Source: an uncultured Lachnospiraceae bacterium
GTDB taxonomy: Bacteria > Bacillota > Clostridia > Lachnospirales > Lachnospiraceae
NCBI GenBank assembly: GCA_902797185.1
Contig: CADBRV010000052.1
Span: forward strand, 129 to 64,128
DNA: 64,000 bases
Direction of reading: 5' to 3'
Program-made: the position numbers and the translations under genes
Shown: piece by piece, positions 24,262 to 63,324 of the stretch
Numbering within the stretch: the first letter of the stretch is position 1
Layout: every line of letters starts with the position of its first letter
The notes under the pieces: model-generated
What the model was told of the DNA's origin: nothing
Database searches by the model: none
The model's input: only the letters and a program-made list of their open reading frames with translations

Positions 24262-26508
24262 TCAGAGAAAGGTCAGGCAATCCGGCTGCCAGGAAAGGAC
24301 CCGCCGTTTCATGCCTTCGATATCCAGCACGCCAAAGGCAAAGCCTTTGCGCACCAGCTCCTGCGGGACATATTCGTCATACTTGTCAAACAGGGGGACT
24401 TCCTTCGGATAAAGAAGCTCCATGGGGTCAAAATCCTTTACCGCCTCTTCCGCGGTAATCCGGTAAAAAGCATCCTCGTCCGCCTGCATCGTAAACATCA
24501 GGTAATACGGCCTGGTGGAGCTGAAGCCTTTGAGCCCCAGCCTGCTGCCGCAGCGGATTTTCAAAAACCGCTCCAGCGCGAGGAAGGCATAGCTGCCGAG
24601 CCAGGGAAAAAGCACCCACATCTTCCCGCCCAGTGGGATCAGCGGGCGCCCTTCCATCCCCGCTTTTTCAAAGGTGCCGCGGGCTTCCTGCAGCCTGGCG
24701 GCTGCGTGGGGCATCAGGTAAGGGTATGCCTTTTTTTCCGAAAGCACGCCATGCATCCGTTCCAGGATCCGGGTATGGATATCCCCGGCCTCGTCCCCGA
24801 AATAAGCGGGGACCTTGCCCTTCACCAGGGTGCAGTAGACTTCCTTCCTCTTGTGGTCCACTTCGTCCACTGCCCAGGCCCGCCCCGCGATGGCGATCTT
24901 TTCCCCGATGGGAGGCGGGTTCACGATGGTGCCCAGTTCTTCGGAGCCCGCATGGACTTTATATTCCACATTCTCCTTGAACACCGCGTAAAACTTGTAA
25001 TTGTTGACAACCCGCTCGCCCGTAAGCCCCAGGATGAGGCCGTCGTTTTCCGTCCGGTTGATATGGTCCGTCTCCAGAAGGTGCCGCAGCAGGATACGGA
25101 AATCATCCTGCGTGATCCTCCGGAAAGCCGGCAGCGGCAGAACCCGGGATGCCAGCTCCGCCGGCGTCATTTCCCCTTGGGATGCCAGCGTGCTCATCGT
25201 CTGGTGGTAAAGCAGGGAAAAAGGCAGTTTCCGGGTCCTGGGCGGCTCCACGAAACGCTCTTCCAGGTAAAGCTGCACCAGGGCGATCCCCTGGACCAGG
25301 TACCACGGGATCAGCTCCGGCAGCATCGCCCTGGCCTCGGGATGGTCCTCCCGCATCACAAACCACATCTCGGAAGGCTCGCCCCGGCGGCCGGTCCTCC
25401 CCATCCTCTGCAGGAAACCGGAAACCGTGAACGGGGCGTCGATCTGGAACGCCCGCTCCAGCTTCCCAATATCGATCCCCAGCTCCAAAGTGGCTGTAGC
25501 GCAGACGCTCATCAGGGAATCGTCGTCCTTCATTTCCTCTTCGGCGCTTTCCCGGTAAGAGGTGGAGAGGTTGCCATGGTGGATCAAGAAACGGTCCGGC
25601 TCATGGTTTGCCTCGCAGTACTGCCGCAAAGTCTGGCACACCGCCTCGCACTCTTCCCTGGAATTGGTGAAAACCAGGCATTTCTTTTCCCGGGTATGCT
25701 CAAAGATATAGCCGCAGCCCGGGTCTGCCGTCTTGGGTGCATGATCGGTAGGCTCTTCCGTCACCGGAGGCTGGATCAAAGCGTCTTTCCCTTCATCCGC
25801 CTGGGGATTGCTGTTAAAAAAGTGCTCCATGGACAGGCGCCAGACTTCTTTTTCCCCTTCGAATTTCGGGATAATGGTCCCCCGTCCGCTTCCGGCAGCC
25901 AGGAATTTCCCCGCCTCTTCCGGATGGCCGATGGTGGCGGTAAGGCCGATCCTCCTGGGGTGGCAGCCTGCCGTCTGGCTGAGCCTCTGGATCAGGCAGA
26001 AAACCTGCCCTCCCCGGTCCGCCCGGAGCAGGGAATGGACCTCGTCAATGACGATAAACCGAAGGTCCCCGAACAGGCTCGGGATCTCCATATGCTTGTT
26101 TATCATCAGGGCTTCTAAGGATTCCGGCGTGATCTGCAGGATCCCGGAGGGCTTTTTCAAAAGCTTTTTCTTCTGGGACTGGGACGCGTCGCCATGCCAT
26201 TTGGTAACCCGGATGTCCGTATCCTCGCAAAGCTCCATGAGCCTTCCATACTGGTCATTGATCAGGGCTTTCAGCGGCGCGATATAAAGGACCCCTACCG
26301 ATTTTGGCGGGTCTTCCTCCAGCAAAGTCAGGATCGGGAAGAAAGCCGCCTCCGTCTTGCCGGAAGCCGTGGATGCCGTAAGGAGCACATTTTCATCCGT
26401 ATTAAAAATGGCATCCCCTGCCGCGTTCTGGACCGCCCGAAGGTCCCTCCAGCCGGAGCGGAAAATATAATCCTGTATAAAAGGCGCGTACCGGTTAAAA
26501 ATATCCAT
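24262..26508 (-). CDS. DEAD/DEAH-box (Lhr-like) superfamily-2 helicase; SngC-like component of a Shango-type cassette
   Basis: Motif I ASTASGKTEA, motif II VIDEVHSL, motif III TATIG and motif VI QRMGRTGRR, plus a ~300-aa uncharacterised C-terminal region. Confidence 0.8.
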   Translation of the reverse strand: MDIFNRYAPFIQDYIFRSGWRDLRAVQNAAGDAIFNTDENVLLTASTASGKTEAAFFPILTLLEEDPPKSVGVLYIAPLKALINDQYGRLMELCEDTDIRVTKWHGDASQSQKKKLLKKPSGILQITPESLEALMINKHMEIPSLFGDLRFIVIDEVHSLLRADRGGQVFCLIQRLSQTAGCHPRRIGLTATIGHPEEAGKFLAAGSGRGTIIPKFEGEKEVWRLSMEHFFNSNPQADEGKDALIQPPVTEEPTDHAPKTADPGCGYIFEHTREKKCLVFTNSREECEAVCQTLRQYCEANHEPDRFLIHHGNLSTSYRESAEEEMKDDDSLMSVCATATLELGIDIGKLERAFQIDAPFTVSGFLQRMGRTGRRGEPSEMWFVMREDHPEARAMLPELIPWYLVQGIALVQLYLEERFVEPPRTRKLPFSLLYHQTMSTLASQGEMTPAELASRVLPLPAFRRITQDDFRILLRHLLETDHINRTENDGLILGLTGERVVNNYKFYAVFKENVEYKVHAGSEELGTIVNPPPIGEKIAIAGRAWAVDEVDHKRKEVYCTLVKGKVPAYFGDEAGDIHTRILERMHGVLSEKKAYPYLMPHAAARLQEARGTFEKAGMEGRPLIPLGGKMWVLFPWLGSYAFLALERFLKIRCGSRLGLKGFSSTRPYYLMFTMQADEDAFYRITAEEAVKDFDPMELLYPKEVPLFDKYDEYVPQELVRKGFAFGVLDIEGMKRRVLSWQPDCLTFL

Positions 26509-27969: not shown

Positions 27970-30159
27970 TTATCCTTCTCCCAGGATGCTTTCCACGTCA
28001 TCCTTATAATCTTCTATTAATAAGAGCGTGCCGTCCCGGCATTCCAGGACCGAGTCGCCGATTTCATCCCAAAGTGCCTCATTAATCTCGTCCGCGATGA
28101 CTTCCGGCATGCCATGCCAGGAGTCGATGAAGCCTTTTGCCGGCTTTCCCTGCAGTAATAGTGACAGGATCTCCCTCTGCTGAGAGGTCAGGAGGGTGTC
28201 CTCGGAAAAGGAATTGAATTCCGCATCCGGTGATGGAAGCCCCGTGCCGGGAGTTTCCATCCCTGCCCCACTATTTTTCTGTGCATTGTCTAAAGAATGC
28301 ATCTCCTGGAGTTCCAAACTGCTGCCAGGAACGGCTGTTTCTTTTGCATCCCCCTGGCTTGGTGCCTCCGCCGGTTCCGCCTTCATCTCTGTCGCTGCCT
28401 TCTCCGGCGCCGCCTCTTCCGGCTCTGTCGTCCCCGGCACCGCCTTCTCTATCCTCTCATCCTGCAGTTCTTCCTCTGTCAGGAGGCTTTCCTGGGTAAC
28501 CAGGGCATCCTCCCGAATCTGCGCCAGGCTCTCAAAATGGAAGGTAACCTTCGGTCTTGCCGCCTCGATCTTTGCCTTGCGGTCCTCCTCCAGCACTTCC
28601 GTGATAAAAGGCACGGCCCAGGCATCCTCCTCCCGCTCTTTGAGCGGATACCCGGTCTTCAGGTAAAGGCGCATCTGCCGGTCCGCCTCATGGAGGAAGC
28701 CTTCCAGCTTTTTTCTGTCCAGATAAAGCCTGGAATATTCCTCCCGCCACCAGGCGCCATACATACACAAGACCCTGCAGCAGGGACCGATCTCATATTC
28801 AGCATCTTCCCGGGAATCGTCCCTGCTATCATAAACCGCATTTGCCAGTGGATACCACCTGTGCTGGTATTCTTTTCCAAAAAGCGCGGCAAACAGGTCC
28901 CTGCCGTCTTCCTCCTGATATTTTTGAAGAGCGGCGCGCCACATGGCAGCCAAAAGGCGGGTGCCCTCCTCTTTTTCTTTTTTAAAGACAATGGACGACG
29001 CGATCTTGCCGTTCCCGGCGGAAATGAGGGCGCCATAGACTTCCTGGTCATCGTAAGATCCCGGGTCTTTTAATACCATCATCGGGCGGCTTTTTTCCGA
29101 CTCCTCAGAAGGCACATATTTTTGTACTTCTTCGGCTGGCAGCCTTTTTACAATGGCAAGCTCCATTTTCCAGCGGTGCAGGTTTTCCCGCATCCTTTCA
29201 TCGCCATAGCCACGGTCCAGAAACCCAGTCTCAAACTCATCCATCTTTTCCAGGCTCTCATGGACAGAGCTTGTCCCGATCCCGTTCAAAAGTTCATAGA
29301 GATAGATATACGCATAAGACGAGGAAATATTTTCAAAGCTGCCCTTGCGCGCCCTTCTCCTCCAGGTAAAATAACCCCTGAGCTGGGCAGGTTTCAGGTC
29401 ATGGTAGGTGATAAAATAACGGTCCGGCACCTTGTCCCAGGGAAAATCATCCTCATAATTTTCCATAAACCTGCCCTGTTTGACAAAGTTCCTGCATTTC
29501 GATTCAAAGGAGCCGTCCCCATAGCGGTAAAGCTGCTGCATTTTCAGGATCTGCTCCGGGACATCCTCACCCTCCTGAGATGCCGTGGTATCCCTCCTAA
29601 ACGGGATCCTGGTCGAACGGTACTCCTGCTGGCCAGGCATCCCACCGTGCTGGTCTGGAGAGACGGTTTCTCGATGGATTGTAGTATCTTCCAATGAAGG
29701 CGATGCCGCTCCCCGGCCTGCCGCCGCTTTCTCCCGGTGGATCGGTGTGTTTTCATAAAAGGTCTCGGTCTTATCCCGCCGCCCCGGCGTATCCTCCAGG
29801 ACGATGGTATACCCTCTCGCCTCTTCTTCCTCCACGGCTTTGTCAAACATCCGGAAAACAACGGACGGCTCCGTATCCTCCGTAAAACGGACACCGGTCC
29901 ATTTCTCATTGCGCAGCCGGAAAGGTCCTGAAAGGTAAGGCTTCCCGGCTTCAGCCGCCAGCACTTCCTGCCCGCATTTGATATCACAGATCTCGACTTC
30001 CTGCCCGGATGCTTTATCCGTTGCTTTCATCAAAAGTGCCAGGCATTTTCCGCTCTTTGGAGCCGCCAGGACGGACACATTGGGATAATTTTCCCACAAA
30101 TGCAGTTCCTTGATATGGAATTTTTCCTCCGCATATGCAGCAAGTTCCCGCATCTTCAT
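27970..30159 (-). CDS. TerB-N / TerB-C domain protein with an extra N-terminal domain; SngA-like
   Basis: Central FITYHDLKPAQLRGYFTWRRRARKG is TerB-N-like. C-terminal LTSQQREILSLLLQGK...VIADEINEALWDEIGDSVLE is TerB-C-like. An E/P-rich linker joins them. The N-terminal ~120 aa resemble the MmcQ/YjbR fold (weak call). Confidence 0.6.
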   Translation of the reverse strand: MKMRELAAYAEEKFHIKELHLWENYPNVSVLAAPKSGKCLALLMKATDKASGQEVEICDIKCGQEVLAAEAGKPYLSGPFRLRNEKWTGVRFTEDTEPSVVFRMFDKAVEEEEARGYTIVLEDTPGRRDKTETFYENTPIHREKAAAGRGAASPSLEDTTIHRETVSPDQHGGMPGQQEYRSTRIPFRRDTTASQEGEDVPEQILKMQQLYRYGDGSFESKCRNFVKQGRFMENYEDDFPWDKVPDRYFITYHDLKPAQLRGYFTWRRRARKGSFENISSSYAYIYLYELLNGIGTSSVHESLEKMDEFETGFLDRGYGDERMRENLHRWKMELAIVKRLPAEEVQKYVPSEESEKSRPMMVLKDPGSYDDQEVYGALISAGNGKIASSIVFKKEKEEGTRLLAAMWRAALQKYQEEDGRDLFAALFGKEYQHRWYPLANAVYDSRDDSREDAEYEIGPCCRVLCMYGAWWREEYSRLYLDRKKLEGFLHEADRQMRLYLKTGYPLKEREEDAWAVPFITEVLEEDRKAKIEAARPKVTFHFESLAQIREDALVTQESLLTEEELQDERIEKAVPGTTEPEEAAPEKAATEMKAEPAEAPSQGDAKETAVPGSSLELQEMHSLDNAQKNSGAGMETPGTGLPSPDAEFNSFSEDTLLTSQQREILSLLLQGKPAKGFIDSWHGMPEVIADEINEALWDEIGDSVLECRDGTLLLIEDYKDDVESILGEG

Positions 30160-31665: not shown

Positions 31666-34600
31666 TTACTGCACCGTGACGGTGATCTTCGCCTTCGCAT
31701 TTTCCCATTTGTCTGTACCGGTCTTTACCTTGGATGCTGGGATCTTGATGTAAACCACTTCGCCTTCTCCGGAATCCACCTGCTCGGAATTGAATGTGCC
31801 CTTGGCGGTAAAGATCTTCCCATTGTCACCCGTCATGGACAGCCGGAAATCGGAATACCTTACTGTAGAGGACGTGCCGTTTGCCAGCCAGATGCCGGCC
31901 ATGACGCTTCCGTCATCCTGCTGCCATGCAAAGACAGGCTTGGCGCTGGCCGTACCACTGTAATAATCCTCCGAATTATTGTAGTAATAGACATCATCGC
32001 TTAAAAGCGCCGCATTCCTTCCGTCTTCCTTTGCCTGTAAATAATCCTCGGAATAGAAGGAGCTGTCTGTGCTGGTGTAATTGTCCACTTCTTCCTGCTT
32101 CGACGGGTCGATCTTCCACTCGCCGCCTTCTTCCACCAGCGGGAGCAGGAATGCCGAATCGGATACGGTCTTTCCGGGTGCCGGGCCGGATACGCTGTAG
32201 TAATCCAGGTTCAGGCCATAAACACCGTTTCCTTCATAAACGATCTTGGCGTTGTCATTCGCATACTGGGAAAGGTCCGCAGCCGCAAAAGCGTCCGCAT
32301 ATTTCTGGACCGTCGCATCATCCGTCCCCGATACAAACAGGGAAGAATAATCTGCCGCATCCGAAGATGCCAGCCCTGCGATTTCTTCTGCCACGTCATT
32401 TGCTGCCTCCTGGGCAGTCTTGGTAGAGGTACTGCCAGCCGGAATCAGGCTGCGCCCTAAAGTCAAAAACAGGATCAATGCAGCTGCCACCGCCGTGCAA
32501 AGCACGATCCAGAAGGACGCCCTCCGATGAAGAGGCTTTTCTTCCTCCTCGTCTTCCAGCATATCCACTTCCTGTTTTTCCTGGTTCTGATCCGCAAAGA
32601 AGCTGTTCTCTTCTTCCTCGTCCGGAGTCTCCGTAAAAGCAGGCAGGTCGTAATCATCCACCAGCTCTCTTGCAGGCTGTGTGGGTTCTTCCGTCTCAGG
32701 CTGGACGCCTTCTTCGGATTCCTGCGGAATGCTTTCCTCCGTTTCCTGCGGAGTGCCTTCCTCGGATTCCTGTGAAACGTCCTTCTCGGTTTCAGGAAGA
32801 ACATCCTCCGACGCAGGTGCTTCCTGATCGGATTCAGGAGCTTCCTCTGTGGTTTCTTCTGCCCCAGGTTCAGAAACTTCTTCTGTAGTTTCTTCTACCG
32901 GAACCTCTTCTGTTTCCGGTTCGGAAACTTCTTCTACAGATTCTTGTTCCTGAGCCTCTTCCGTTTCCTGTTCAGAGGATTCTACTACTGGCTCCTCGGT
33001 CGGTTCTTCCACCGGCTCTGGCTCAGTTGTTTCTTCCATCTGTTCCTCAGCAGCCGATTCTTCTTCATTCTCAGTTTCAGGAGCTTCCTCTTCTGCTGGC
33101 TCTTCAACTTCTGGTTCGGAGGATTCTTCTACCGTCTCTTCGACCGATTCTTCCGCTGGCTCTGGCTCAGAGGTTTCTTCTACCGATGCTTCCTCCGGTT
33201 TCTCTTCTTCACTTTCAGTTTCAGGAACTTCGTCACTTGTTTCCTCAACCTCAGGTTCAGGCTCTTCTGCAGTCTCTTCCGGTTCGGATGGCTCCTCGAT
33301 CGGTTCTTCCACCGGCGTCGATCCAGATGTTTCTTCTACCTCTTCCGGTTCGGCGTTTTCCTCTACCGGTTCCTCTTTACCTTCGCTTTCAGAAGCTTCC
33401 TCTTCCGTTGCCTCTTCAACCTCAGGCTCAGAATCCTCTTCTACAGATTCTTCTTCCGGAGTCTCTTCTGTTTCCGATTCAGAGGATTTTTCTACCGGCT
33501 CCTCTGCTGGCTTTTCTTCTTCCTTCTCGGTCTCAGGAGCTTCCGCTTTCTCTTCAGGGGCATCCGCCTCTTCCTTTTCAGAAGTTTTTTCTTCCGTGAC
33601 AGAAGCCTTCGCTTCCTTCTCCAGGAATCGAACTTCTCCCGCAAGGGCATCCTTATCAAAATCTGCTTCAGAGGCAGGTACTGCCCACGGGGTCTTCCCG
33701 CCAAGCTCTACACCCGAGCCAACTTCCAGTATTGTCACCTGTTCGGCGGCACCTTCATAAGAAGGCACATCTGCTGCCTGGATAATATCCGGAAGCTCCT
33801 CCTGGCCTTCCGCAGCCTGTTCCTGGAAACCATCTTCTTCTGCTCCTGGTTCCACAGCCCCTGGTTCCGGTTCGTCAGCCTCAGATTCCGATCCGGCTGA
33901 TTCCGCAGGAGTTCCGGCATCATTTCCGAATTCTGATCCGCTTCCAGGTTCACCGCTGTCTTCTCCCGGTACGTGTTCCCCTGTTTCAGATGCAGTTTCA
34001 TCCGTATCCGGGAACAGGTCGATCATCTCCAGGCCATCGTCTGCATTTTCTTCCGTTGATCCGGAAGCACTGCCAGACGCTGCCGCATCCTCTGATGCCT
34101 CTGTCTCACTGCCAGGCTCTGACGCATCCTCCAGTGCCCCTGGCTCGCTGCCGGACGCTGCCGCATTTTCTGAATCTTCCAGCGCTTTCCCGGCATCTCC
34201 CGATGCCTGGGCTTCTCCCGCACCTTCCGCGCTTTCCTCCACGTCTCCGGAGCCGGAAGCGCCGGCTTTTGCAGCCTCTTCTTCTTGGAAAATACGCTCC
34301 AGGACCGCCGTATTTTCTTCTGTCGCGGCCAAAAAGGCCTTGTCCAGCTTCTTCTTCCGCTCTTCCGGTGGGGTCGTCCTGGCCTTGTAATGCTTATAGC
34401 TTTCTTCCGCGTCGGCAGGCGCACTCTTCCGCTCCATCTCTGCCGCTTTTTTCAATAACGCGTAAAACCAGGTAATGGTAGGAAGCCCATACAAATCTGC
34501 CCCATGCTTTTCCAGTTCCAGCACAGCCGCTTTCACATGCTTCTTGGCATAGGTAACCTGCATATGTGCTTCATCCTGGGAAATGCCGAACATGTCCCCG

Positions 34601-35091
34601 ATTTTCGAAAAGGAATAGCCCTCTTGGCGCAGGCGGATGCAGGACGCCTGGATACCGGGAATGTCATAAAAAATATAAGCAAGTACCTGGAACAGGTCCT
34701 TTTTCTTTAAATCAATACGGGAAAGGATGGCCTTTTCATTCGAAACGACCCTCCTGCTGGCTTCGTCTTTCGAAGTCACTTCCGGAAGGGCGGGGTCATC
34801 CATCACCCTGCCTGCTTCCTTCCACTGGTTGAGCTTTAGGCAGGTGGTCTCGGCTTTCTGCCTGGCCCAGTCATCAAACTGGTAGGTATCAGGAATCGCG
34901 CTGGTATCGGAGAAGATCTGGTCAAAGATTTCCTGTTCCAGGAAGGAAGCCTTGCTTTCATCGTACCCGCAGTGGCACAGTGCCGCTTCATGGACCATCG
35001 GATACAGTTTCTCATAGAGAATCTGTTCCGACCCTTCCTTGCCTTGTTTCAGATCGTCTATATATGAGCTCCAGTCAAAAGTTGTCCTCAT
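31666..35091 (-). CDS. 1141-aa membrane protein: sigma-70-like N-terminal domain, ~600-aa acidic low-complexity linker, one TM helix, extracytoplasmic C-terminal domain
   Basis: Region-4-like HTH LRQEGYSFSKIGDMFGISQDEAHMQVTYAKKHV. E/P/S/T-rich repeats (EEPxEE, SEPE) span roughly aa 240-845. The TM helix is ASFWIVLCTAVAAALILFLTLG. The C-terminal ~270 aa are paralogous to the next gene. Confidence 0.6.
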   Translation of the reverse strand: MRTTFDWSSYIDDLKQGKEGSEQILYEKLYPMVHEAALCHCGYDESKASFLEQEIFDQIFSDTSAIPDTYQFDDWARQKAETTCLKLNQWKEAGRVMDDPALPEVTSKDEASRRVVSNEKAILSRIDLKKKDLFQVLAYIFYDIPGIQASCIRLRQEGYSFSKIGDMFGISQDEAHMQVTYAKKHVKAAVLELEKHGADLYGLPTITWFYALLKKAAEMERKSAPADAEESYKHYKARTTPPEERKKKLDKAFLAATEENTAVLERIFQEEEAAKAGASGSGDVEESAEGAGEAQASGDAGKALEDSENAAASGSEPGALEDASEPGSETEASEDAAASGSASGSTEENADDGLEMIDLFPDTDETASETGEHVPGEDSGEPGSGSEFGNDAGTPAESAGSESEADEPEPGAVEPGAEEDGFQEQAAEGQEELPDIIQAADVPSYEGAAEQVTILEVGSGVELGGKTPWAVPASEADFDKDALAGEVRFLEKEAKASVTEEKTSEKEEADAPEEKAEAPETEKEEEKPAEEPVEKSSESETEETPEEESVEEDSEPEVEEATEEEASESEGKEEPVEENAEPEEVEETSGSTPVEEPIEEPSEPEETAEEPEPEVEETSDEVPETESEEEKPEEASVEETSEPEPAEESVEETVEESSEPEVEEPAEEEAPETENEEESAAEEQMEETTEPEPVEEPTEEPVVESSEQETEEAQEQESVEEVSEPETEEVPVEETTEEVSEPGAEETTEEAPESDQEAPASEDVLPETEKDVSQESEEGTPQETEESIPQESEEGVQPETEEPTQPARELVDDYDLPAFTETPDEEEENSFFADQNQEKQEVDMLEDEEEEKPLHRRASFWIVLCTAVAAALILFLTLGRSLIPAGSTSTKTAQEAANDVAEEIAGLASSDAADYSSLFVSGTDDATVQKYADAFAAADLSQYANDNAKIVYEGNGVYGLNLDYYSVSGPAPGKTVSDSAFLLPLVEEGGEWKIDPSKQEEVDNYTSTDSSFYSEDYLQAKEDGRNAALLSDDVYYYNNSEDYYSGTASAKPVFAWQQDDGSVMAGIWLANGTSSTVRYSDFRLSMTGDNGKIFTAKGTFNSEQVDSGEGEVVYIKIPASKVKTGTDKWENAKAKITVTVQ

Positions 35092-55300: not shown

Positions 55301-55698
55301 TCTTTGTTCCTCCTGCGTTTCTTGTCCTTATTATACCCGGCCAAAGGGAGTTCACAAGGAAAAAGAGCAAGCTCGCGCCGGCGTCCTGCAAGGGACCGGC
55401 TCCTATGCCTTTTCTATTGCCTACATTATTGAGTTTTCAAGGATCAACACACTTTTCGGTGCGGGAAGTTTTAGTTAGTAATTTTAAATGAGGAAGCTGG
55501 GCAAGGCATGATTCCATGCATTTCATTCCAAGAGATGCTATAAATGAAAAAAACCGGTATCTCTCCAATTCCGAAACCCTGCAACCTTTTCACGAAACAA
55601 GTATAATTCCCCTTCCTTGACATAAAGCCTTATATAAGGTGATAATGAATCTGCACAAATTGGAAATGAGCCTGCATCCTTTTTTTGGAGGATTTTAC

Positions 55699-56610
55699 AT
55701 GGAACCGAAAGAACTCATCTTTAACAAGGTCAACGGGTCCTTCGTAGACGGCTACGGGATCCGTACCACAATTTTCCTGAAAGGCTGCCCGCTGCACTGC
55801 AAATGGTGCTGCAATCCGGAAGGGCAGTCCTTTCAGCAGCAGCTCCGCTACCTGGCAGATGACTGTAACGGGTGCGGCGCCTGTGTCCCGGCCTGTCCAA
55901 AGGGCGCGTTGGAAATAGAAGACGGCAAGGCAGTCTTGGACCGCGGAAAATGCAACCTGTGCGGCAAATGCATCGAAGCCTGCTGGCCCGGCGCCCTGCG
56001 GTATGCCGCCCAGCTCCAAAGCGTGGACGAAGTCTTTTCTTCTATTATAAGGGAGAAGCCGTTTTTCGACCATTCCGGCGGAGGGCTCACCATCGGAGGC
56101 GGGGAAGCCAGCAGCTTTCCGGATTTCTGCCTCGCCCTCATCGCCAAATGCCATGGAAACGGCATCCGCGTCGCCATCGACACCTGCGGGTACACGCTTT
56201 CCGAGGAAAGCCTCAAAGCATTGGACGCAGCGGACCTCCTGCTTTACGACATCAAAGGCATTGACGAAAAGCAGCACATCGAAAATACCGGCGTTTCCAA
56301 CAAACGGATTTTAGACAATTTCCATCACTTTACGGAAATCGGAAAGCCCATGATCGTACGGCTTCCAGTGATCCCCGGCTGCAACGACCAGCCCGAGGAC
56401 CAGGAAAAAGTGATACAGCTCCTGAAAAACGCGCCCAACGTGGAACGGGTGGACATCATCCCCTTCCATACGTTCGGCTCCGTCAAATACGGGGAGCTGG
56501 GCATGCCCTATCCCATGCCGGAAGACGCCAAACCGCTGACAGAAAAAGACGTAGCAGATTACGCCCAGCGCCTGCGGGACGCCGGGCTGAACGTACAGAT
56601 TGGGGGATGA
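55699..56610 (+). CDS. Glycyl-radical enzyme activating protein (radical SAM, with ferredoxin-like insert)
   Basis: CPLHCKWCCNPEG (CX3CX2C), two extra 4Fe-4S motifs (CNGCGACVPACP, CNLCGKCIEAC) and the GGGLTIGGGEA SAM site. ATG 55699 sits behind a GGAGG SD. Confidence 0.85.
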   Translation: MEPKELIFNKVNGSFVDGYGIRTTIFLKGCPLHCKWCCNPEGQSFQQQLRYLADDCNGCGACVPACPKGALEIEDGKAVLDRGKCNLCGKCIEACWPGALRYAAQLQSVDEVFSSIIREKPFFDHSGGGLTIGGGEASSFPDFCLALIAKCHGNGIRVAIDTCGYTLSEESLKALDAADLLLYDIKGIDEKQHIENTGVSNKRILDNFHHFTEIGKPMIVRLPVIPGCNDQPEDQEKVIQLLKNAPNVERVDIIPFHTFGSVKYGELGMPYPMPEDAKPLTEKDVADYAQRLRDAGLNVQIGG

Positions 56611-56880
56611 CGGCTGGAGCTTTTACGGCTTTCGGCCGGCCAGGCGCCTGACGAACGGTCCTTTCAGCCTGCTGCCCGCGCCCGTCTGGCAGCATCGGTC
56701 GGCCAGGTGCCAGGCGAATCGTCCTTTCCTGACTGGCAGCATCGACCTGCCCGGCTCCTGCCATTTTTCTGTACAACCGCAACGGGGTAACAAACCTGGC
56801 CGCATCAACCGCCGGGCCGGGCAGCATCCATCGCCGGGCCGGACCGGGTCTGTAAAACAAGATATCGATTGGGGGATAAT

Positions 56881-59382
56881 ATGGAATTTCATTTTGACAA
56901 TACCCGCATCCATGAGATGCGGAAAAAAATGCTGGTGCGTCCGTCCATCTGCGTGGAACGCGCCAAGCTGATGACCGAATCTTATAAAAACACCGAAGGC
57001 GAACCCGCCGTCATGCGCCGGGCGAAAGCTTTTGCTTATATCCTGGACCATAAATCCGTGTACATTTATCCCGGCGAGACCATCGTCGGGCGTCCTACTT
57101 CGAAAATCCGTGGCGGCTCTATCTCGCCGGAACTGCAGTGCGACTGGATTTTAAACGAGCTGGACCTGCTTTCCACCAGGGAGACAGACCCCTTCGTACC
57201 GCTGACGGAAGAAGAGCGGAAAGTCTTGAAAGAAGTAGTGCCTTATTGGGAAAAGCGCAGCCTGCGTTACCACTGGAATGAAGTGACCAGCGAGAGGGCA
57301 AAGTCCATCGACGACCTGATCCTGGGCGGCGGCGCCTACTGCGGCAACAACCAGTACCCTGGCCATTCTTCGCCGGATTACAGCCTGCTGTTAAAATACG
57401 GCACGGAAAGGATGGTGAAAAAGATCCGGGAGCGGCTGGCGGAAGATGATGCTCTAAAGGAGCACCCGGATGCAGCCTCAGGCCAGCGCCAGGACTCCAC
57501 ACCGGACGACCAGCACTCTGCACAGAACCAGCGCCAAGGCTCCACTCCAGAAGGACAGCACTCTGCACAGGGCAAGCGCCAGCCCCTCTCTCCAAAGCAG
57601 CGCTTGGAACTGGAAGCCATGTGCATTTGCCTGGACGCACTGGGAAGGCAGGGAGCCCGCTACGCACAGGAAGCCCTAAGGCTGGCAGGCGAAGAAAAGG
57701 ACCCGGCCCGCAAAGCCGAGCTGGAAGAAATCGCCCACGTCTGCAATAAAGTGCCCCGCCTCCCGGCAGAAAGCTTCCGGGAAGCCGTCCAGTCCCTGTG
57801 GTTTGGCTATTACTGCATCATGATCGAAAACTGGGGCACCGGGAACACTTTCCACCGCATCGACCAGTACCTGCTGCCTTATTATGAAAAGAGCCGTGCC
57901 GACGGCATGACCCAGGAAGAAGCTTACCAGTACCTGGCCATGCTGCTTTTAAACTGCAACAGCGACTGCGTCGTTTACAGTGAAAAACGCAGCCACGGAT
58001 TTGCCGGCAACAACTCCGGATGCGCCTTTACCATCGGAGGCGTAAAAGAGGACGGCAGCTGCGCCGTAAACGAGCTTTCCTATTTGATCCTGGAAGCGGA
58101 ACGGAATGTCAACATGGCATCTGACGACGTAGTAGTGCGGATCTCGGACAACACCCCGAAGGAATTTCTGCTTTTTGCCTGCGGCGTTGCCAGGGACGAT
58201 GGCGGGAAGCTGAAATTCCTCGGAGACAAAACCACCATTTCCAACCTGGAGCTGGACGGCCTGCCCGAAAAGGACGCCAGGAATTATTCCATCGCCGGCT
58301 GTACTTCCCCGGTCGTCGCCGGGCTCTCCTATGACATCCCCGGCGGCATCCTGTCCCTGCCCGGCATCCTGGAGCTGGCGTTAAATAACGGCGTGCAGAA
58401 GATGACCGGCCAGAAACTGGGCGTTTCCACCGGCAACGCGGCAGATTTTTCTTCCTTTGAAGAACTCTGGGACGCTTACTGCAGACAGGTGGACTATATC
58501 ATCCCCCTGTGCCATGAAATCAAAAATAACGACAAGCGGATGTTTTCCGAATACGCGCCCAGCCCGTTCCAGTCCGCCTTTTTCCCGAGCTGCATAGAGC
58601 GCGGGGAAGACGTCATCGACGGCGGCACCAAGCCTTATTACACTTTCGCCCTGTCCATGGCTGGGGCGCCCAATACCGGTGACGGGCTCATCGCTATCAA
58701 GAAAGCCGTTTTTGAAGAAAAGAAAATCACGATGCAGCAGCTTCTGGATGCCCTGGCAGCCAATTTCAAGGGGTACGAAAATATCCAGAGCCTGCTTCTG
58801 CGCTATCCGAAATTCGGGAACAACGAACCCGAAGTGGACGGCATGGTAAACCAGGTGCTGTCCTATGTGTCCGACCGCATTTCGGAAGGCCCGGGATTTA
58901 AAGGTGCGCATTCCACCGCGGCAGCGGCAGCCGTTACTGCCAATGTAGGGCTGGGCATGGTGCTGGGGGCAACCCCGGACGGAAGAAGTGCCGGGCAGCC
59001 CATTTCCGAAGGCGGCATTTCGCCTTCCCAGGGCAGAAACACTTCCGGCGCCACCGCCACGATGCTTTCCATCGCCGGCCTGGACCACACGAAGCTGCGC
59101 CACGGCGAGGTCCTGAACATGCGGATCCACCCGGATGCCATCCGGACGCCGGACAAGTTGGAGAAATTCGCCTATCTGATCCGTGCCTATATGGACCTGG
59201 GCGGCTTCCTGGTGCAGTTCAACATTGTTTCCACCGAAACCTTGCGGGATGCCCAAATCCATCCGCAGGCACACCGCGACCTGGTTGTCCGGGTAGCCAC
59301 CTACGCCGCTTATTTCATCGAGCTGGGCAAGGAGCTGCAGGATGACATCATCCACAGGTATGAATTTGAGGATCTGGGATAA
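56881..59382 (+). CDS. Pyruvate formate-lyase-like glycyl radical enzyme homologue with Gly-to-Thr substitution at the radical site
   Basis: Full-length PFL2/glycerol-dehydratase-type fold with Cys loop IAGCTSPVVAG. The C-terminal fingerprint reads VVRVATYAAYF instead of RVAGY (ACC at 59299-59301). A 2.3 x 15-aa Q-rich insert lies at 57484-57586. Confidence 0.8.
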   Translation: MEFHFDNTRIHEMRKKMLVRPSICVERAKLMTESYKNTEGEPAVMRRAKAFAYILDHKSVYIYPGETIVGRPTSKIRGGSISPELQCDWILNELDLLSTRETDPFVPLTEEERKVLKEVVPYWEKRSLRYHWNEVTSERAKSIDDLILGGGAYCGNNQYPGHSSPDYSLLLKYGTERMVKKIRERLAEDDALKEHPDAASGQRQDSTPDDQHSAQNQRQGSTPEGQHSAQGKRQPLSPKQRLELEAMCICLDALGRQGARYAQEALRLAGEEKDPARKAELEEIAHVCNKVPRLPAESFREAVQSLWFGYYCIMIENWGTGNTFHRIDQYLLPYYEKSRADGMTQEEAYQYLAMLLLNCNSDCVVYSEKRSHGFAGNNSGCAFTIGGVKEDGSCAVNELSYLILEAERNVNMASDDVVVRISDNTPKEFLLFACGVARDDGGKLKFLGDKTTISNLELDGLPEKDARNYSIAGCTSPVVAGLSYDIPGGILSLPGILELALNNGVQKMTGQKLGVSTGNAADFSSFEELWDAYCRQVDYIIPLCHEIKNNDKRMFSEYAPSPFQSAFFPSCIERGEDVIDGGTKPYYTFALSMAGAPNTGDGLIAIKKAVFEEKKITMQQLLDALAANFKGYENIQSLLLRYPKFGNNEPEVDGMVNQVLSYVSDRISEGPGFKGAHSTAAAAAVTANVGLGMVLGATPDGRSAGQPISEGGISPSQGRNTSGATATMLSIAGLDHTKLRHGEVLNMRIHPDAIRTPDKLEKFAYLIRAYMDLGGFLVQFNIVSTETLRDAQIHPQAHRDLVVRVATYAAYFIELGKELQDDIIHRYEFEDLG

Positions 59383-59574
59383 AGAGAGTGGCGAGGGTGT
59401 AAATTCTTTTCATTCCGCAACTGCCCGGACATGGTTTCTCCCATCATCCGATATTTAGCGGGAAAACTTCTCCGTGGCTGCCCGGGCTGCCAATGGCCAG
59501 TGGGAATCTTCATTTCCGCTAAACATTAGCTGGCCGGAAGTTTTTTCCGACACCTAACGAAACAGAAAATAGAG

Positions 59575-59625
59575 GAAGCAGGATCTCGCCAGACTGTAAG
59601 TTCGGCAGGATCCTGCTTCTTTACC
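59575..59625 (+). terminator. Rho-independent terminator after the GRE gene
   Basis: GAAGCAGGATC-23 nt-GATCCTGCTTC followed by TTTACC. Confidence 0.65.
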
Positions 59626-59730
59626 TTAAAAAATCTCATGTGCTTTCTTATATACCAACTTTCTAATTTTAGCACCTTCGTTTGTTCCTAAATGATATCT
59701 CTTCTATATGGATAGCACAAACCTATAAAA

Positions 59731-59808
59731 ATCACAGTTTATGCTTTCAAATGCACAAACTTTTCTAAAATCACAGTTTGTGCTTTCAAATGCACAAACT
59801 TTTTCGCA
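59731..59808. repeat. Two tandem 39-bp units, each containing a 9-bp inverted repeat (candidate double operator)
   Basis: Unit ATCACAGTTT(A/G)TGCTTTCAAATGCACAAACTTTT. Arms AGTTTGTGC-n8-GCACAAACT are perfect in unit 2, with one mismatch in unit 1. Confidence 0.7.
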
Positions 59809-60194
59809 GTCTCATTCTATATTCTTTGTCCTTGAACTATTTCTGATCTTTACGAACCTGGCATCTTGCCCTCATCCACTGAATATGACAATCTACACCA
59901 TAAAAATTCAATATCAGAACAGGCCTCTCCTCCTGTGCTTTCCATACCTGTTTCTGCTATTATAGATGGGAACCTGCGCCCTAATATACATCTTGCGTAT
60001 GGACATATCACCCAGCGCTCGAGGGCGGACGTTTGAGACTGGCGTAATATTTTTTCACGCAACAGCCTCCAATGCCTAAGGGCTTAAATGTGGAAAACGG
60101 TATGAAGCATTGTACGCAGGAGCACCACCTCCAAACACAGGCTGCTTTTTCGTAGCGGCATGGGCAGGGCGAATAAGAAAGGAAGAATGATCTT

Positions 60195-62637: not shown

Positions 62638-63324
62638 TTACTGCAGCCCCAGCTGGTCAGCTGCATAGGTTGCCTGGTCTACCGTGAATTTATCGCCATA
62701 GTCAGAAGTCAGCTGGTCGATGAGTCCCTGCCTGGAAAAACTGCTCAGATCCAGATAGCTCTGGCCTGCTTCTACCGCTTCCTGGTTCCAGTCGGCCCCG
62801 CAGTTATCTGCCGCATAAGTTGCCTGATCTACGGTGAACTTGTCGCCTGCATCAGAGGAAAGCTGGTCAATCAGCCCCTGATAGGAAAAGCCTTTCAGGT
62901 CCAGATAAGACTGGGCGGCACGAAGCGCCTGCTCATTCCAGTCAGCCCCGCAGTGGTCAGCCGCATACGTAGCGTCTTCCTCGGAGAACTGGTTGCCATA
63001 TTCGGAAGAAAGCTGGTCGATGAGCCCCTGATAGGAAAAGCCCTTCAGCTTCAAATAGTTCTGTGCCGCTTCCAGCGCTTCCTTTTGGCTGGTTGTGGCA
63101 TCTGAAGTATCCACTGTGCTTGAGGTATCCGTCCCCTCATCTGCTGCAGGAGCTGCCTCCGCGGAAGCTTCCGGCTGCGCGGAGGCCTCGGAAGATTCTG
63201 CTTCCGCGGATACTGCCGGTGCATTGTCGGATGAAGTGCTTGACGAAGAAGTGGTGGTGCCGCAGGCAGCGAGGGACGCGATGACCATGCCGGTAAGAAG
63301 CGCGATTACAACTTTTCTTTTCAT
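62638..63324 (-). CDS. Ltp-family surface lipoprotein (three Ltp-type repeats)
   Basis: Lipobox SLAACG. Three 50-aa repeats (A.AAQ.YL.LKGFSYQGLIDQLSS..GD.F...ATYAAD.CGADWN) are encoded by 150-bp DNA repeats starting near 62711, 62861 and 63011. Confidence 0.7.
   Translation of the reverse strand: MKRKVVIALLTGMVIASLAACGTTTSSSSTSSDNAPAVSAEAESSEASAQPEASAEAAPAADEGTDTSSTVDTSDATTSQKEALEAAQNYLKLKGFSYQGLIDQLSSEYGNQFSEEDATYAADHCGADWNEQALRAAQSYLDLKGFSYQGLIDQLSSDAGDKFTVDQATYAADNCGADWNQEAVEAGQSYLDLSSFSRQGLIDQLTSDYGDKFTVDQATYAADQLGLQ

What the first reader, a model, noticed from the sequence alone, without database searches (positions are those of the whole stretch)
56881..59382. Glycyl-radical enzyme homologue lacking the radical glycine (RVATY instead of RVAGY), beside an intact activase
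The C-terminus aligns residue for residue with the canonical GRE fingerprint …HRDL(I/V)VRVAG(Y/F)SAYF…Q.(D/E)II.R…. The sequence reads HRDLVVRVATYAAYFIELGKELQDDIIHRY. The Gly that stores the radical is Thr (ACC at 59299-59301, two nucleotide changes away from GGC), and the following Ser is Ala. The thiyl-loop Cys is present but in a PFL-like context (IAGCTSPVVAG), without the Glu of GCxE dehydratase/lyase-type GREs. The neighbouring activase keeps all three Fe-S motifs and the SAM site. Three explanations are possible. It may be a pseudo-enzyme with a scaffold or regulatory role. It may use non-glycyl radical chemistry. It may be a very recent inactivation.
Basis: partly seen in the sequence, partly recalled or inferred. 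Interest (0 to 1): 0.8.

Follow-up and report, generated by a model that had tools for sequence, protein, structure and literature searches.

The report
Threonyl radical enzyme with its activase
This gene encodes a relative of the oxygen-sensitive glycyl radical enzymes that carries a conserved threonine where the radical-bearing glycine normally sits; it belongs to the "threonyl radical enzyme" class first described in 2024, so it is real and probably functional but not a new kind of thing.

Summary
The ORF at 56881..59382 (+) is an 833-aa PFL-like/Gly_radical protein. Its fingerprint reads RVATY, and codon 59299-59301 is ACC (Thr807). A radical-SAM activase with all its motifs lies directly upstream.

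The Thr is neither a sequencing error nor a recent lesion.
- All 118 full-length homologues down to 47% identity have Thr at this column.
- All four Thr codons are used at this site across 76 such genes.
- The Thr-bearing sequences form one clade, and the window protein is nested inside it.

This clade is already published. Fu et al., JACS 2024 (PMC11528403) named these proteins threonyl radical enzymes (TREs), part of the aminoacyl radical enzymes. They showed by EPR that two Flavonifractor plautii TREs, given their activase, form a stable Cα threonyl radical that can pass to the conserved Cys. MAG isolates named in that paper's TRE table are the sources of the loci that encode the window protein's closest genome relatives (63-67% identity). 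No AARE has a known reaction as of a June 2026 review.

The pseudo-enzyme reading is unlikely, and recent inactivation is refuted.

Local peculiarities:
- Ser replaces the eliminase Glu two residues after the Cys.
- There is one TRE, with the activase upstream.
- A 45-bp in-frame repeat adds a disordered loop whose length varies between strains.

Verdict: a new member of a known kind, of modest interest.

The parts
55699..56610 (+). Activating enzyme of the threonyl radical enzyme (TRE-AE): a radical-SAM activase of 303 aa. The mechanical ORF starts at GTG 55639, but the likely start is ATG 55699.
   Evidence: NCBIfam TIGR02494 scores 300.4 bits against a cutoff of 174, and Pfam finds Radical_SAM plus Fer4 domains. 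A GGAGG ribosome-binding site lies 8 nt before ATG 55699. A promoter-like TTGACA-18-GATAAT at 55617-55646 overlaps the GTG. The protein is 43-53% identical to activases in Thr loci and 32-41% identical to activases in Gly loci.
55786..55809 (+). CX3CX2C motif (CPLHCKWC, aa 30-37) that binds the SAM-cleaving [4Fe-4S] cluster
55864..55983 (+). Two ferredoxin-like CX2CX2CX3C motifs for auxiliary clusters: CNGCGACVPAC (aa 56-66) and CNLCGKCIEAC (aa 85-95)
   Evidence: Pfam Fer4 hits
56095..56106 (+). GGGE motif of the activase (SAM-binding site)
56611..56880 (+). GC-rich spacer of 270 bp between the activase and the TRE, containing degenerate 22-27 nt direct repeats. It ends with the TRE ribosome-binding site GGGGGA.
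   Evidence: It shows no significant RNA fold (z = 0.03) and no Rfam match.
56881..59382 (+). Threonyl radical enzyme (TRE), 833 aa, with the GRE fold
   Evidence: Pfam finds PFL-like plus Gly_radical. The AlphaFold2 model has mean pLDDT 94.7 and pTM 0.93. The best PDB match is 1r8w, with TM-scores of 0.91 and 0.96. The protein is nested in the monophyletic Thr clade.
57483..57581 (+). In-frame 45-bp tandem repeat of 2.2 copies. It accounts for the 41-aa insertion (aa 193-233; 57457-57579) that only this protein and P0001 have.
   Evidence: TRF and the alignment gap analysis. P0001/L079 has one more 15-aa unit. pLDDT is below 50 for aa 208-226.
58291..58323 (+). Cys loop IAGCTSPVVAG. Cys474 (58300-58302, TGT) is the presumed thiyl radical site. 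Ser476 occupies the position of the eliminase Glu.
   Evidence: The alignment to 1r8w pairs this loop with the dehydratase's 'gcvep' Cys loop. G473, C474 and P477 are invariant in 119 sequences, and position 476 is S (110), T (7), N (1) or C (1), never E. In the model this is a beta-hairpin (strands 470-472 and 476-478) with Cys at the tip.
59290..59304 (+). Radical fingerprint RVATY. Thr807 (59299-59301, ACC) is the presumed Cα radical storage site.
   Evidence: In the model this is a beta-hairpin (strands 802-805 and 808-811) with Ala-Thr at the tip. Thr is invariant in 119 of 119 sequences.

Best explanation
The two genes encode a threonyl radical enzyme (TRE, one of the aminoacyl radical enzymes) and its dedicated radical-SAM activase.

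The proposed mechanism has three steps:
1. The activase reductively cleaves SAM at its CX3CX2C [4Fe-4S] cluster. The resulting 5'-deoxyadenosyl radical removes the Cα hydrogen of Thr807 at the tip of the C-terminal finger loop. This leaves a stable, oxygen-sensitive Cα-centred threonyl radical.
2. During turnover, that radical abstracts hydrogen from Cys474 on the opposing finger loop.
3. The thiyl radical then attacks a small-molecule substrate that is still unknown.

Shown here: the anatomy, the conservation, the clade membership and the predicted fold. Shown elsewhere, on homologues about 40% identical (FpTRE1 and FpTRE2): threonyl radical formation and Cys-dependent hydrogen exchange. Inferred: that this particular protein does the same.

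Because Ser/Thr replaces the Glu general base of the GCxE eliminases throughout this sub-clade, I infer that the reaction is probably not a canonical Glu-assisted 1,2-elimination.
For: **Position of the Thr and Cys.** Thr807 aligns with the radical Gly of glycerol dehydratase, and Cys474 aligns with its thiyl Cys.

**Conservation.**
- Thr is invariant in 119 of 119 sequences from 98% to 47% identity. G473, C474 and P477 are also invariant.
- Among the 50%-identity representatives of 1.84 billion proteins, the best-scoring 12 all have Thr. The first Gly appears at 38% identity.
- In an NJ tree, 48 Thr sequences are monophyletic, with the window protein nested inside and a Ser-type sequence as neighbour.
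- The site uses codons ACA 13, ACC 37, ACG 7 and ACT 19 across 76 genes.

**Activase linkage.** An activase lies in the fetched flank of most Thr loci, usually directly adjacent. The window activase is closer to these (43-53% identity) than to activases of Gly loci (32-41%). The activase motifs are intact.

**Fold.** The model has pLDDT 94.7. Thr and Cys sit at the tips of two beta-hairpins, as in GREs. The target-normalised TM-score to 1r8w is 0.96.

**Strain comparison.** A strain variant differs at 7 synonymous and 5 nonsynonymous codons. Three of the five nonsynonymous changes are in the disordered insert.

**Literature.** Fu et al. 2024 (PMC11528403) reported:
- EPR of FpTRE1 and FpTRE2 with TRE-AE gives a carbon-centred radical, assigned to Thr Cα, on 28% and 20% of monomers respectively.
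- The T770G variant gives a glycyl doublet, and Cys437-dependent H/D exchange was observed.
- Table S3 lists as TRE sources the isolates RGIG4999, RUI358, RUI539 and ABMPRH_156_1. These are the sources of my loci L007, L008, L038 and L011, which are 63-67% identical to the window protein.
Against: - No experiment exists on this protein or on its GC[TN][ST]P sub-clade.
- Identity to the two characterised TREs is only about 38-41%. That figure was measured against machine-read (OCR) nucleotide sequences containing frameshifts, so it is approximate.
- The substrate and reaction are unknown for every AARE (PMC13450708).
- The usual arrangement of two TREs per activase is not found here. There is one TRE and no second copy in the window.
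- The gene order is reversed relative to the closest orthologues, and their LysR regulator is absent.
- The tree is a distance tree without bootstrap support.
Confidence: 0.85

Rival explanations
1. Pseudo-enzyme: a GRE-derived scaffold or regulatory protein that no longer stores a radical. The activase would be retained for another client or would be decaying.
For: There is no canonical Gly, and NCBIfam scores fall below every curated GRE cutoff. No metabolic partner genes are conserved around the locus apart from a LysR regulator. A low-complexity repeat is inserted in the protein.
Against: The thiyl Cys, the GC..P loop and about 90 other columns are invariant across the clade. An activase lies in the fetched flank of most Thr loci, and the window activase is closer to those than to activases of Gly loci. 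Homologous TREs have been shown experimentally to carry a radical and to exchange hydrogen through the Cys (PMC11528403). The insert is a disordered surface loop outside the barrel.
Confidence: 0.06
2. The activase modifies Thr807 differently, for example by Cα epimerisation or by side-chain oxidation to a keto or other cofactor. The Thr would then be a precursor of a non-radical or different cofactor rather than a radical reservoir.
For: Radical-SAM enzymes that abstract Cα-H from peptide residues to epimerise them are known (PMC13012085, seen only as a title and abstract). Nothing in the sequence alone distinguishes radical storage from another modification.
Against: For FpTRE1 and FpTRE2, EPR shows a persistent carbon-centred radical. 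Side-chain β, γ and O-centred assignments were excluded, and the T→G variant gives an ordinary glycyl radical. The activase is of the GRE-AE family (TIGR02494), not an epimerase family.
Confidence: 0.05
3. Sequencing or assembly error, or a very recent strain-specific lesion of an ordinary glycyl radical enzyme.
For: None was found. The only support is that GGC to ACC would need just two substitutions.
Against: An independent metagenome contig (L079, ENA ERZ931678) has the same RVATY. Thr is found in 119 of 119 homologues and in about 60 genome loci from many phyla. All four Thr codons are used at the site.
Confidence: 0.005
4. A different glycine in the C-terminal domain is the true radical site, so the enzyme is an ordinary GRE with a shifted motif.
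For: G816 in the ELG motif is fairly well conserved, in 101 of 119 sequences.
Against: G816 is Ser or Pro in 18 homologues. The phmmer and structural alignments place Thr807 exactly at the hairpin tip that the Gly occupies in the 1r8w alignment. In FpTRE1 the T770A, T770V, T770I, T770S and T770C variants gave no radical.
Confidence: 0.01

Closest known systems
Threonyl radical enzymes FpTRE1/FpTRE2 and FpTRE-AE of Flavonifractor plautii (aminoacyl radical enzymes; Fu et al., J Am Chem Soc 2024, PMC11528403)
   Same: - An RV[AS]T[YF] fingerprint with Thr in the radical-Gly column.
- A conserved Cys-loop Cys.
- An adjacent radical-SAM activase with CX3CX2C plus auxiliary clusters.
- The same monophyletic clade, through relatives from isolates listed in that paper's Table S3.
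- The Firmicutes/Oscillospiraceae setting.
- As far as the OCR'd sequence shows, FpTRE1 also has a GCNSP Cys loop, with Ser at C+2.
   Different: - Only about 38-41% identical to either characterised enzyme (approximate).
- One TRE per activase, rather than the usual two or more.
- The activase is upstream rather than downstream.
- A 41-aa repeat-derived disordered insertion.
- No experimental data exist for this sub-clade.
B12-independent glycerol dehydratase (PDB 1R8W) and other GRE 1,2-eliminases (propanediol dehydratase, CutC, HypD)
   Same: These are the best matches by sequence and structure among solved proteins: 438.8 bits and a target-normalised TM-score of 0.96 with rmsd 1.8 Å. They share the ten-stranded barrel with two finger loops and the same family of activase.
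   Different: - The radical Gly is Thr.
- The catalytic Glu two residues after the Cys (the 'gcvep' loop of 1r8w) is Ser476.
- In the pairwise alignment, the segment aligned to the dehydratase's 'nghsisp' reads 'wgtgntf' in the TRE, so that stretch is not conserved. From memory, this stretch contributes to diol binding.
- The NCBIfam PFL2-3 subfamily score of 561.9 bits is below its cutoff of 678.2.
Pyruvate formate-lyase (E. coli PflB)
   Same: It shares the superfamily fold.
   Different: - There is no Cys-Cys pair: the residue before Cys474 is the invariant Gly473.
- TIGR01255 scores only 136.7 bits against a cutoff of 994.
- PFL chains rank far below the eliminases in the sequence search against solved structures.
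- Thr replaces Gly.
Alanyl and serinyl radical enzymes (AREs and SREs; same 2024 paper)
   Same: They show the same phenomenon, a non-Gly residue at the radical position with a dedicated activase. Representatives turned up in my search: P0133, P0138, P0172 and P0222 with RVAAY, and P0212 with RVASF.
   Different: They carry a different residue and fall in different clades. The Ser type is the neighbour of the Thr clade, while the Ala types sit among the Gly enzymes.

Membership tests
Threonyl radical enzymes (TRE; AARE class) | Homology to the PFL-like and Gly_radical domains, with the GRE barrel fold | tested here: met
   Pfam PF02901 scores 572.6 bits and PF01228 scores 87.6 bits. The model has pLDDT 94.7, and its TM-scores to 1r8w are 0.91 and 0.96.
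Threonyl radical enzymes (TRE; AARE class) | Thr in the column of the radical Gly of the RVxG[FWY] fingerprint | tested here: met
   RVATY aligns to RVAGY of 1r8w. The codon ACC is at 59299-59301. Thr is invariant in 119 of 119 clade members.
Threonyl radical enzymes (TRE; AARE class) | A conserved catalytic Cys on the Cys loop | tested here: met
   Cys474 aligns with the Cys of the 'gcvep' loop of 1r8w. It is invariant in 119 sequences and in the 91-sequence alignment that includes Gly enzymes.
Threonyl radical enzymes (TRE; AARE class) | A neighbouring radical-SAM activase with CX3CX2C (and usually auxiliary clusters) | tested here: met
   The activase at 55699..56610 scores 300.4 bits on TIGR02494 against a cutoff of 174. 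Its motifs are located.
Threonyl radical enzymes (TRE; AARE class) | Placement inside the monophyletic TRE clade that contains published members | tested here: met
   In the NJ tree, 48 Thr sequences form one clade with no non-Thr member, and the window protein is nested inside. The closest genome loci come from isolates listed as TRE sources in Table S3 of PMC11528403. Caveats: this is a distance tree without bootstrap support, and the match was made by isolate name, not by accession.
Threonyl radical enzymes (TRE; AARE class) | Formation of a stable Cα threonyl radical on activation (EPR) | not testable with these tools
   This has been shown only for FpTRE1 and FpTRE2. Here it is inferred from homology.
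Threonyl radical enzymes (TRE; AARE class) | Two or more TRE genes beside one activase (typical of the family, not defining) | tested here: not met
   tblastn of the TRE against the whole window finds only itself. The closest orthologues (L001-L011) are also mostly single TRE-plus-activase pairs, whereas L009 has four TREs.
Canonical glycyl radical enzymes | Gly in the RVxG[FWY] fingerprint as the radical site | tested here: not met
   Thr807 occupies that column.
GRE 1,2-eliminases (glycerol/propanediol dehydratase, CutC, HypD, IslA) | A Glu general base two residues after the thiyl Cys (GCxE) | tested here: not met
   Ser476 aligns with the Glu of the 'gcvep' loop. In 119 homologues this position is S, T, N or C, never E. 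Some other TRE sub-clades do have Glu here (P0126, P0127, P0130).
Pyruvate formate-lyase (formate C-acetyltransferase) | An adjacent Cys-Cys pair on the Cys loop, and a score above the TIGR01255 equivalog cutoff | tested here: not met
   The loop has Gly473-Cys474. TIGR01255 scores 136.7 bits against a cutoff of 994.2.

The most novel reading that the evidence does not exclude
The sub-clade to which this protein belongs has a Cys loop of G-C-[T/N]-[S/T]-P, with Ser/Thr where eliminases have their catalytic Glu. In other species it is usually a LysR-regulated TRE-activase pair. This sub-clade may catalyse a reaction type not yet described for the GRE superfamily, rather than the Glu-assisted 1,2-elimination that Fu et al. 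hypothesised for AAREs. If so, the bulkier threonyl radical may be tied to that different chemistry.
Probability: 0.3. Interest if true: 0.65.

Novelty: new member of a known kind. Interest (0 to 1): 0.3.

Why it matters
That class was published in October 2024, so this finding adds no new principle.

What this locus does add:
- It is a further, fairly divergent TRE, about 40% identical to the two characterised enzymes. It probably comes from a rumen or gut Clostridia genome that has no close match (best 67% identity) among the GTDB species-representative genomes scanned.
- The survey suggests the TRE clade is larger than the 71 sequences in the paper.
- The survey also shows that the residue two positions after the catalytic Cys varies among TRE sub-clades (E, Q, S, T, N, I, L, K, A, C). 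This argues for several different chemistries and gives a handle for choosing targets.

The reaction catalysed by any AARE is still an open question. A minimal two-gene locus such as this one is a convenient expression target, but by itself it does not make that question testable.

Tried and rejected
- **Second TRE or GrcA-like spare-part protein in the window.** tblastn found only the self hits.
- **Riboswitch or other known RNA near the locus.** An Rfam gathering-threshold scan of the whole window gave 0 hits. Folding the 270-nt activase-TRE spacer gave z = 0.03.
- **Function from conserved neighbours.** I clustered ORFs around 10 orthologous loci. Only the TRE, the activase, a LysR regulator (6 loci) and an unannotated cluster in 5 loci (an ATPase-like sequence in L004) recur. 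Single-locus neighbours, namely a CoA-transferase-like protein in L010 and a fumarate-reductase-like flavoprotein in L011, are not shared. The window has no LysR homologue. I therefore rejected any substrate prediction from context.
- **Finding the source genome.** The GTDB species-representative scan returned no locus above 67% identity. Only one 5.9-kb ENA metagenome contig, L079, is near-identical.
- **Exact identity to FpTRE1 and FpTRE2.** The only sequences available were machine-read codon-optimised DNA from the paper's SI, which is full of indels. tblastn gives about 38-41% over fragmented alignments, which is approximate only.
- **A 'PFL-type enzyme' reading based on the C-x-S-P motif.** I rejected this on the NCBIfam and PDB rankings and on the absence of the Cys-Cys pair.
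Full report
**1. The observation.** The window carries an ORF at 56869/56881..59382 on the + strand. The biologically likely start is ATG 56881. GGGGGA lies 7 nt upstream, and a 98%-identical protein from another metagenome starts there. The product is then 833 aa.

Codon 59299-59301 is ACC, which is Thr807. The C-terminus reads HRDLVVRVATYAAYFIELGKELQDDIIHRY, and the mid-protein loop reads IAGCTSPVVAG, with Cys474 encoded at 58300-58302. Pfam finds PFL-like (572.6 bits) and Gly_radical (87.6 bits).

A phmmer alignment to B12-independent glycerol dehydratase (PDB 1r8w) pairs 'vrvatyaayf' with 'vrvagysaqf', and 'iagctsp' with 'iigcvep'. Thr807 is therefore in the radical-glycine column. Cys474 is in the thiyl-cysteine column. 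Ser476 is where the eliminases have their catalytic Glu.

The gene directly upstream is a glycyl-radical-enzyme-type activase, scoring 300.4 bits on TIGR02494 against a cutoff of 174. It has CPLHCKWC, two CX2CX2CX3C motifs and GGGE. Its real start is probably ATG 55699, which has a GGAGG ribosome-binding site. A promoter-like TTGACA-18-GATAAT at 55617-55646 overlaps the mechanical GTG start.

**2. Not an error and not recent.** A search of 5.8 billion proteins returned 120 best hits from 98% down to 47% identity. Every one of the 118 full-length hits has RV[A/S]T[Y/F]. In an alignment of 119 sequences, T807, G473, C474 and P477 are invariant.

An exhaustive HMMER search of 1.84 billion 50%-identity representatives shows the boundary. 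The top 12 representatives (45-38% identity) all have Thr. Ala- and Ser-bearing sequences then appear, and Gly appears from 38% identity downward. In a neighbour-joining tree of 91 sequences, the 48 Thr-bearing ones form a single clade with no other member. The window protein is nested deep inside it, and a Ser-type sequence is the neighbour.

Among the 78 best loci, about 60 carry Thr. They come from Oscillospiraceae, Lachnospiraceae, Moorellaceae, Sporomusa, Chloroflexota, Acidobacteriota, Desulfobacterota and others. Across 76 such genes the site uses ACA (13), ACC (37), ACG (7) and ACT (19). This is the signature of an old residue kept by selection.

A second strain, ENA contig L079, has the same two genes in the same order. 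Its TRE differs at 7 synonymous and 5 nonsynonymous codons, and three of the five nonsynonymous changes lie in a disordered insert.

**3. What it is.** A full-text search found that this exact phenomenon is published. Fu et al., J Am Chem Soc 2024 (PMC11528403), described 'aminoacyl radical enzymes' (AAREs): GRE homologues with Ala, Ser or Thr in place of the catalytic Gly.

For two threonyl radical enzymes (TREs) of Flavonifractor plautii, activation by the neighbouring TRE-AE with SAM and dithionite gave a persistent carbon-centred radical. It was assigned to Thr Cα and was present on 28% and 20% of monomers. The T770G variant gave an ordinary glycyl doublet, while T770A, V, I, S and C gave nothing. 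H/D exchange in T770G required Cys437, which indicates a working thiyl relay.

Their Table S3 lists as TRE sources the isolates RGIG4999, RUI358, RUI539 and ABMPRH_156_1. These are the sources of my loci L007, L008, L038 and L011, the closest genome relatives of the window protein at 63-67% identity. The table also lists Lawsonibacter hominis NSJ-51 (L020) and Moorella sp. SLA38 (L016).

Identity to FpTRE1 and FpTRE2 themselves is about 38-41%. I measured it against the paper's machine-read codon-optimised DNA, which has many indels, so the figure is approximate. It fits the paper's statement that most AAREs share only 40-50% identity with one another. A June 2026 review still states that no AARE function has been elucidated (PMC13450708).

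**4. Structure.** An AlphaFold2 model built on a 91-sequence alignment has mean pLDDT 94.7 and pTM 0.93.
- Thr807 lies between strands 802-805 and 808-811.
- Cys474 lies between strands 470-472 and 476-478.

This matches the two finger loops of GREs.

Foldseek against the PDB puts glycerol dehydratase 1r8w first (TM-scores 0.91 and 0.96, rmsd 1.8 Å). Propanediol dehydratase, CutC, hydroxyproline dehydratases and PflD/YbiW follow, with benzylsuccinate synthase and the decarboxylases lower. No AARE structure appeared among the matches. The tool does not return coordinates, so I could not measure the Thr-Cys distance.

**5. How it most likely works.** The activase cleaves SAM reductively. The 5'-deoxyadenosyl radical removes the Cα hydrogen of Thr807. 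The resulting threonyl radical is stored until a substrate binds. It then oxidises Cys474 to a thiyl radical, which starts substrate chemistry.

The anatomy and clade membership are shown here. The radical chemistry is shown only for homologues, and its transfer to this protein is inference. I put confidence at 0.85.

The substrate is unknown. One constraint can be added. Throughout this sub-clade the residue two positions after the Cys is Ser or Thr, and never Glu. Nearly all neighbouring Gly enzymes, and a few other TRE sub-clades, have Glu there. In the pairwise alignment, the dehydratase segment 'nghsisp' is paired with 'wgtgntf' in the TRE, so that stretch is not conserved either. A Glu-assisted 1,2-elimination of the known type is therefore less likely for this sub-clade. 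This is an inference.

**6. Context.** The window is ordinary chromosome, 53.5% G+C.
- Far upstream are nitrogen-assimilation genes: glutamate synthase, type III glutamine synthetase and an Amt-PII fusion.
- There are also CTP synthase, a TerB-domain protein, a DEAD-box helicase and a sensor histidine kinase.
- From the translations, which were not profile-tested, ORFs that look like a pst phosphate-transport operon also lie upstream.
- Immediately around the pair are a NUDIX hydrolase and a DUF4317 protein on the other strand, upstream. An ABC_ATPase/MRB1590-like protein lies downstream.

Nothing metabolic is linked to the pair.

The closest orthologous loci have the order TRE then activase, with overlapping genes. 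In 6 of 10 of them a LysR-family regulator lies upstream. In the window and in L079 the order is activase, a 270-bp spacer, then TRE. No LysR homologue is anywhere in the 64 kb. The paper's typical arrangement of two TREs per activase is not present here. It is seen in L020, L024-L026 and L049, and in L009, which has four TREs and one activase.

**7. Rivals.**
- A pseudo-enzyme reading (0.06) conflicts with the invariant Cys loop, the linked activase and the published EPR data.
- A different Thr modification by the activase (0.05) is not excluded by sequence, but it is contradicted by the published spectroscopy on homologues.
- Error or recent lesion (below 0.01) and an alternative Gly as the radical site (0.01) are refuted by the survey and the alignments.

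**8. Verdict.** The feature is a new member of a known kind, the TRE/AARE class of 2024. It is no longer surprising to a specialist, and this locus alone does not open the outstanding question of what AAREs do. Interest is 0.3.

The most novel reading still open is that this Glu-less sub-clade performs a reaction type new to the superfamily (probability about 0.3).

Noticed in passing
window 57483-57581 (aa 193-233 of the TRE); L079 1321-3867: An in-frame 45-bp tandem repeat (2.2 copies; 15-aa units QRQDSTPDDQHSAQN / QRQGSTPEGQHSAQG) creates a 41-aa insertion. Only this protein and the 98%-identical P0001 have it. P0001 has one more unit, so copy number varies between strains. The model gives pLDDT below 50 for aa 208-226, which indicates a disordered loop.
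   Followed up: yes
window 55699-59382 compared with L001-L011, L022, L038: Gene order is activase then TRE, separated by a 270-bp spacer, in the window and in L079. The 56-67% identical orthologues have TRE then activase with overlapping genes, and usually a LysR regulator upstream. The window has no LysR homologue at all.
   Followed up: yes
window 56681-56838: The GC-rich spacer between activase and TRE contains degenerate direct repeats of 22-27 nt (CTGGCAGCATCG... motif, 3 plus 2 copies). It has no Rfam match and no fold more stable than shuffled sequence. Its origin is unknown.
   Followed up: partly
window 59728-59803 (within the 813-bp gap 59383-60194 that has no long ORF): There are two tandem 39-bp copies (97% identical), each containing the near-palindrome AGTTTGTGCATTTGAAAGCACAAACT. 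This looks like a paired operator or terminator-like element, upstream of the ABC_ATPase gene at 60195.
   Followed up: no
L009 2104-13495 (MAG Oscillospiraceae SBF912SR1HQ0028): Four TRE paralogues lie in tandem (Cys loops GCHNP, GCTSP, GCHNP, GCNTP), followed by a single activase and preceded by two LysR-like genes. This is a larger array than the 'two TREs per activase' described in the paper.
   Followed up: partly
(representatives P0121-P0131): The residue two positions after the catalytic Cys differs between TRE sub-clades (E, Q, S, T, N, I, L, K, A, C). This suggests several distinct chemistries within the TRE clade. Ala-type (RVAAY) and Ser-type (RVASF) relatives also surfaced.
   Followed up: partly
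window 31666-35091 (-): A 1,140-aa ORF has no Pfam family at E ≤ 1e-5.
   Followed up: no
window 13576-15330 (-), 17127-21647 (-), 21945-24062 (-): This is a nitrogen-assimilation cluster: an ammonium transporter fused to a P-II domain, a large glutamate synthase and a type III glutamine synthetase.
   Followed up: no
window 24262-26508 (-) and 27970-30159 (-): A DEAD/ResIII helicase lies near a TerB_N/TerB_C-domain protein, with a 443-aa ORF between them. This may be a stress- or defence-related module.
   Followed up: no
window 62638-63324 (-): A lipoprotein carries three Lipoprotein_Ltp repeats (PF07553, 'host cell surface-exposed lipoprotein'). From memory, this domain is often phage-associated.
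   Followed up: no
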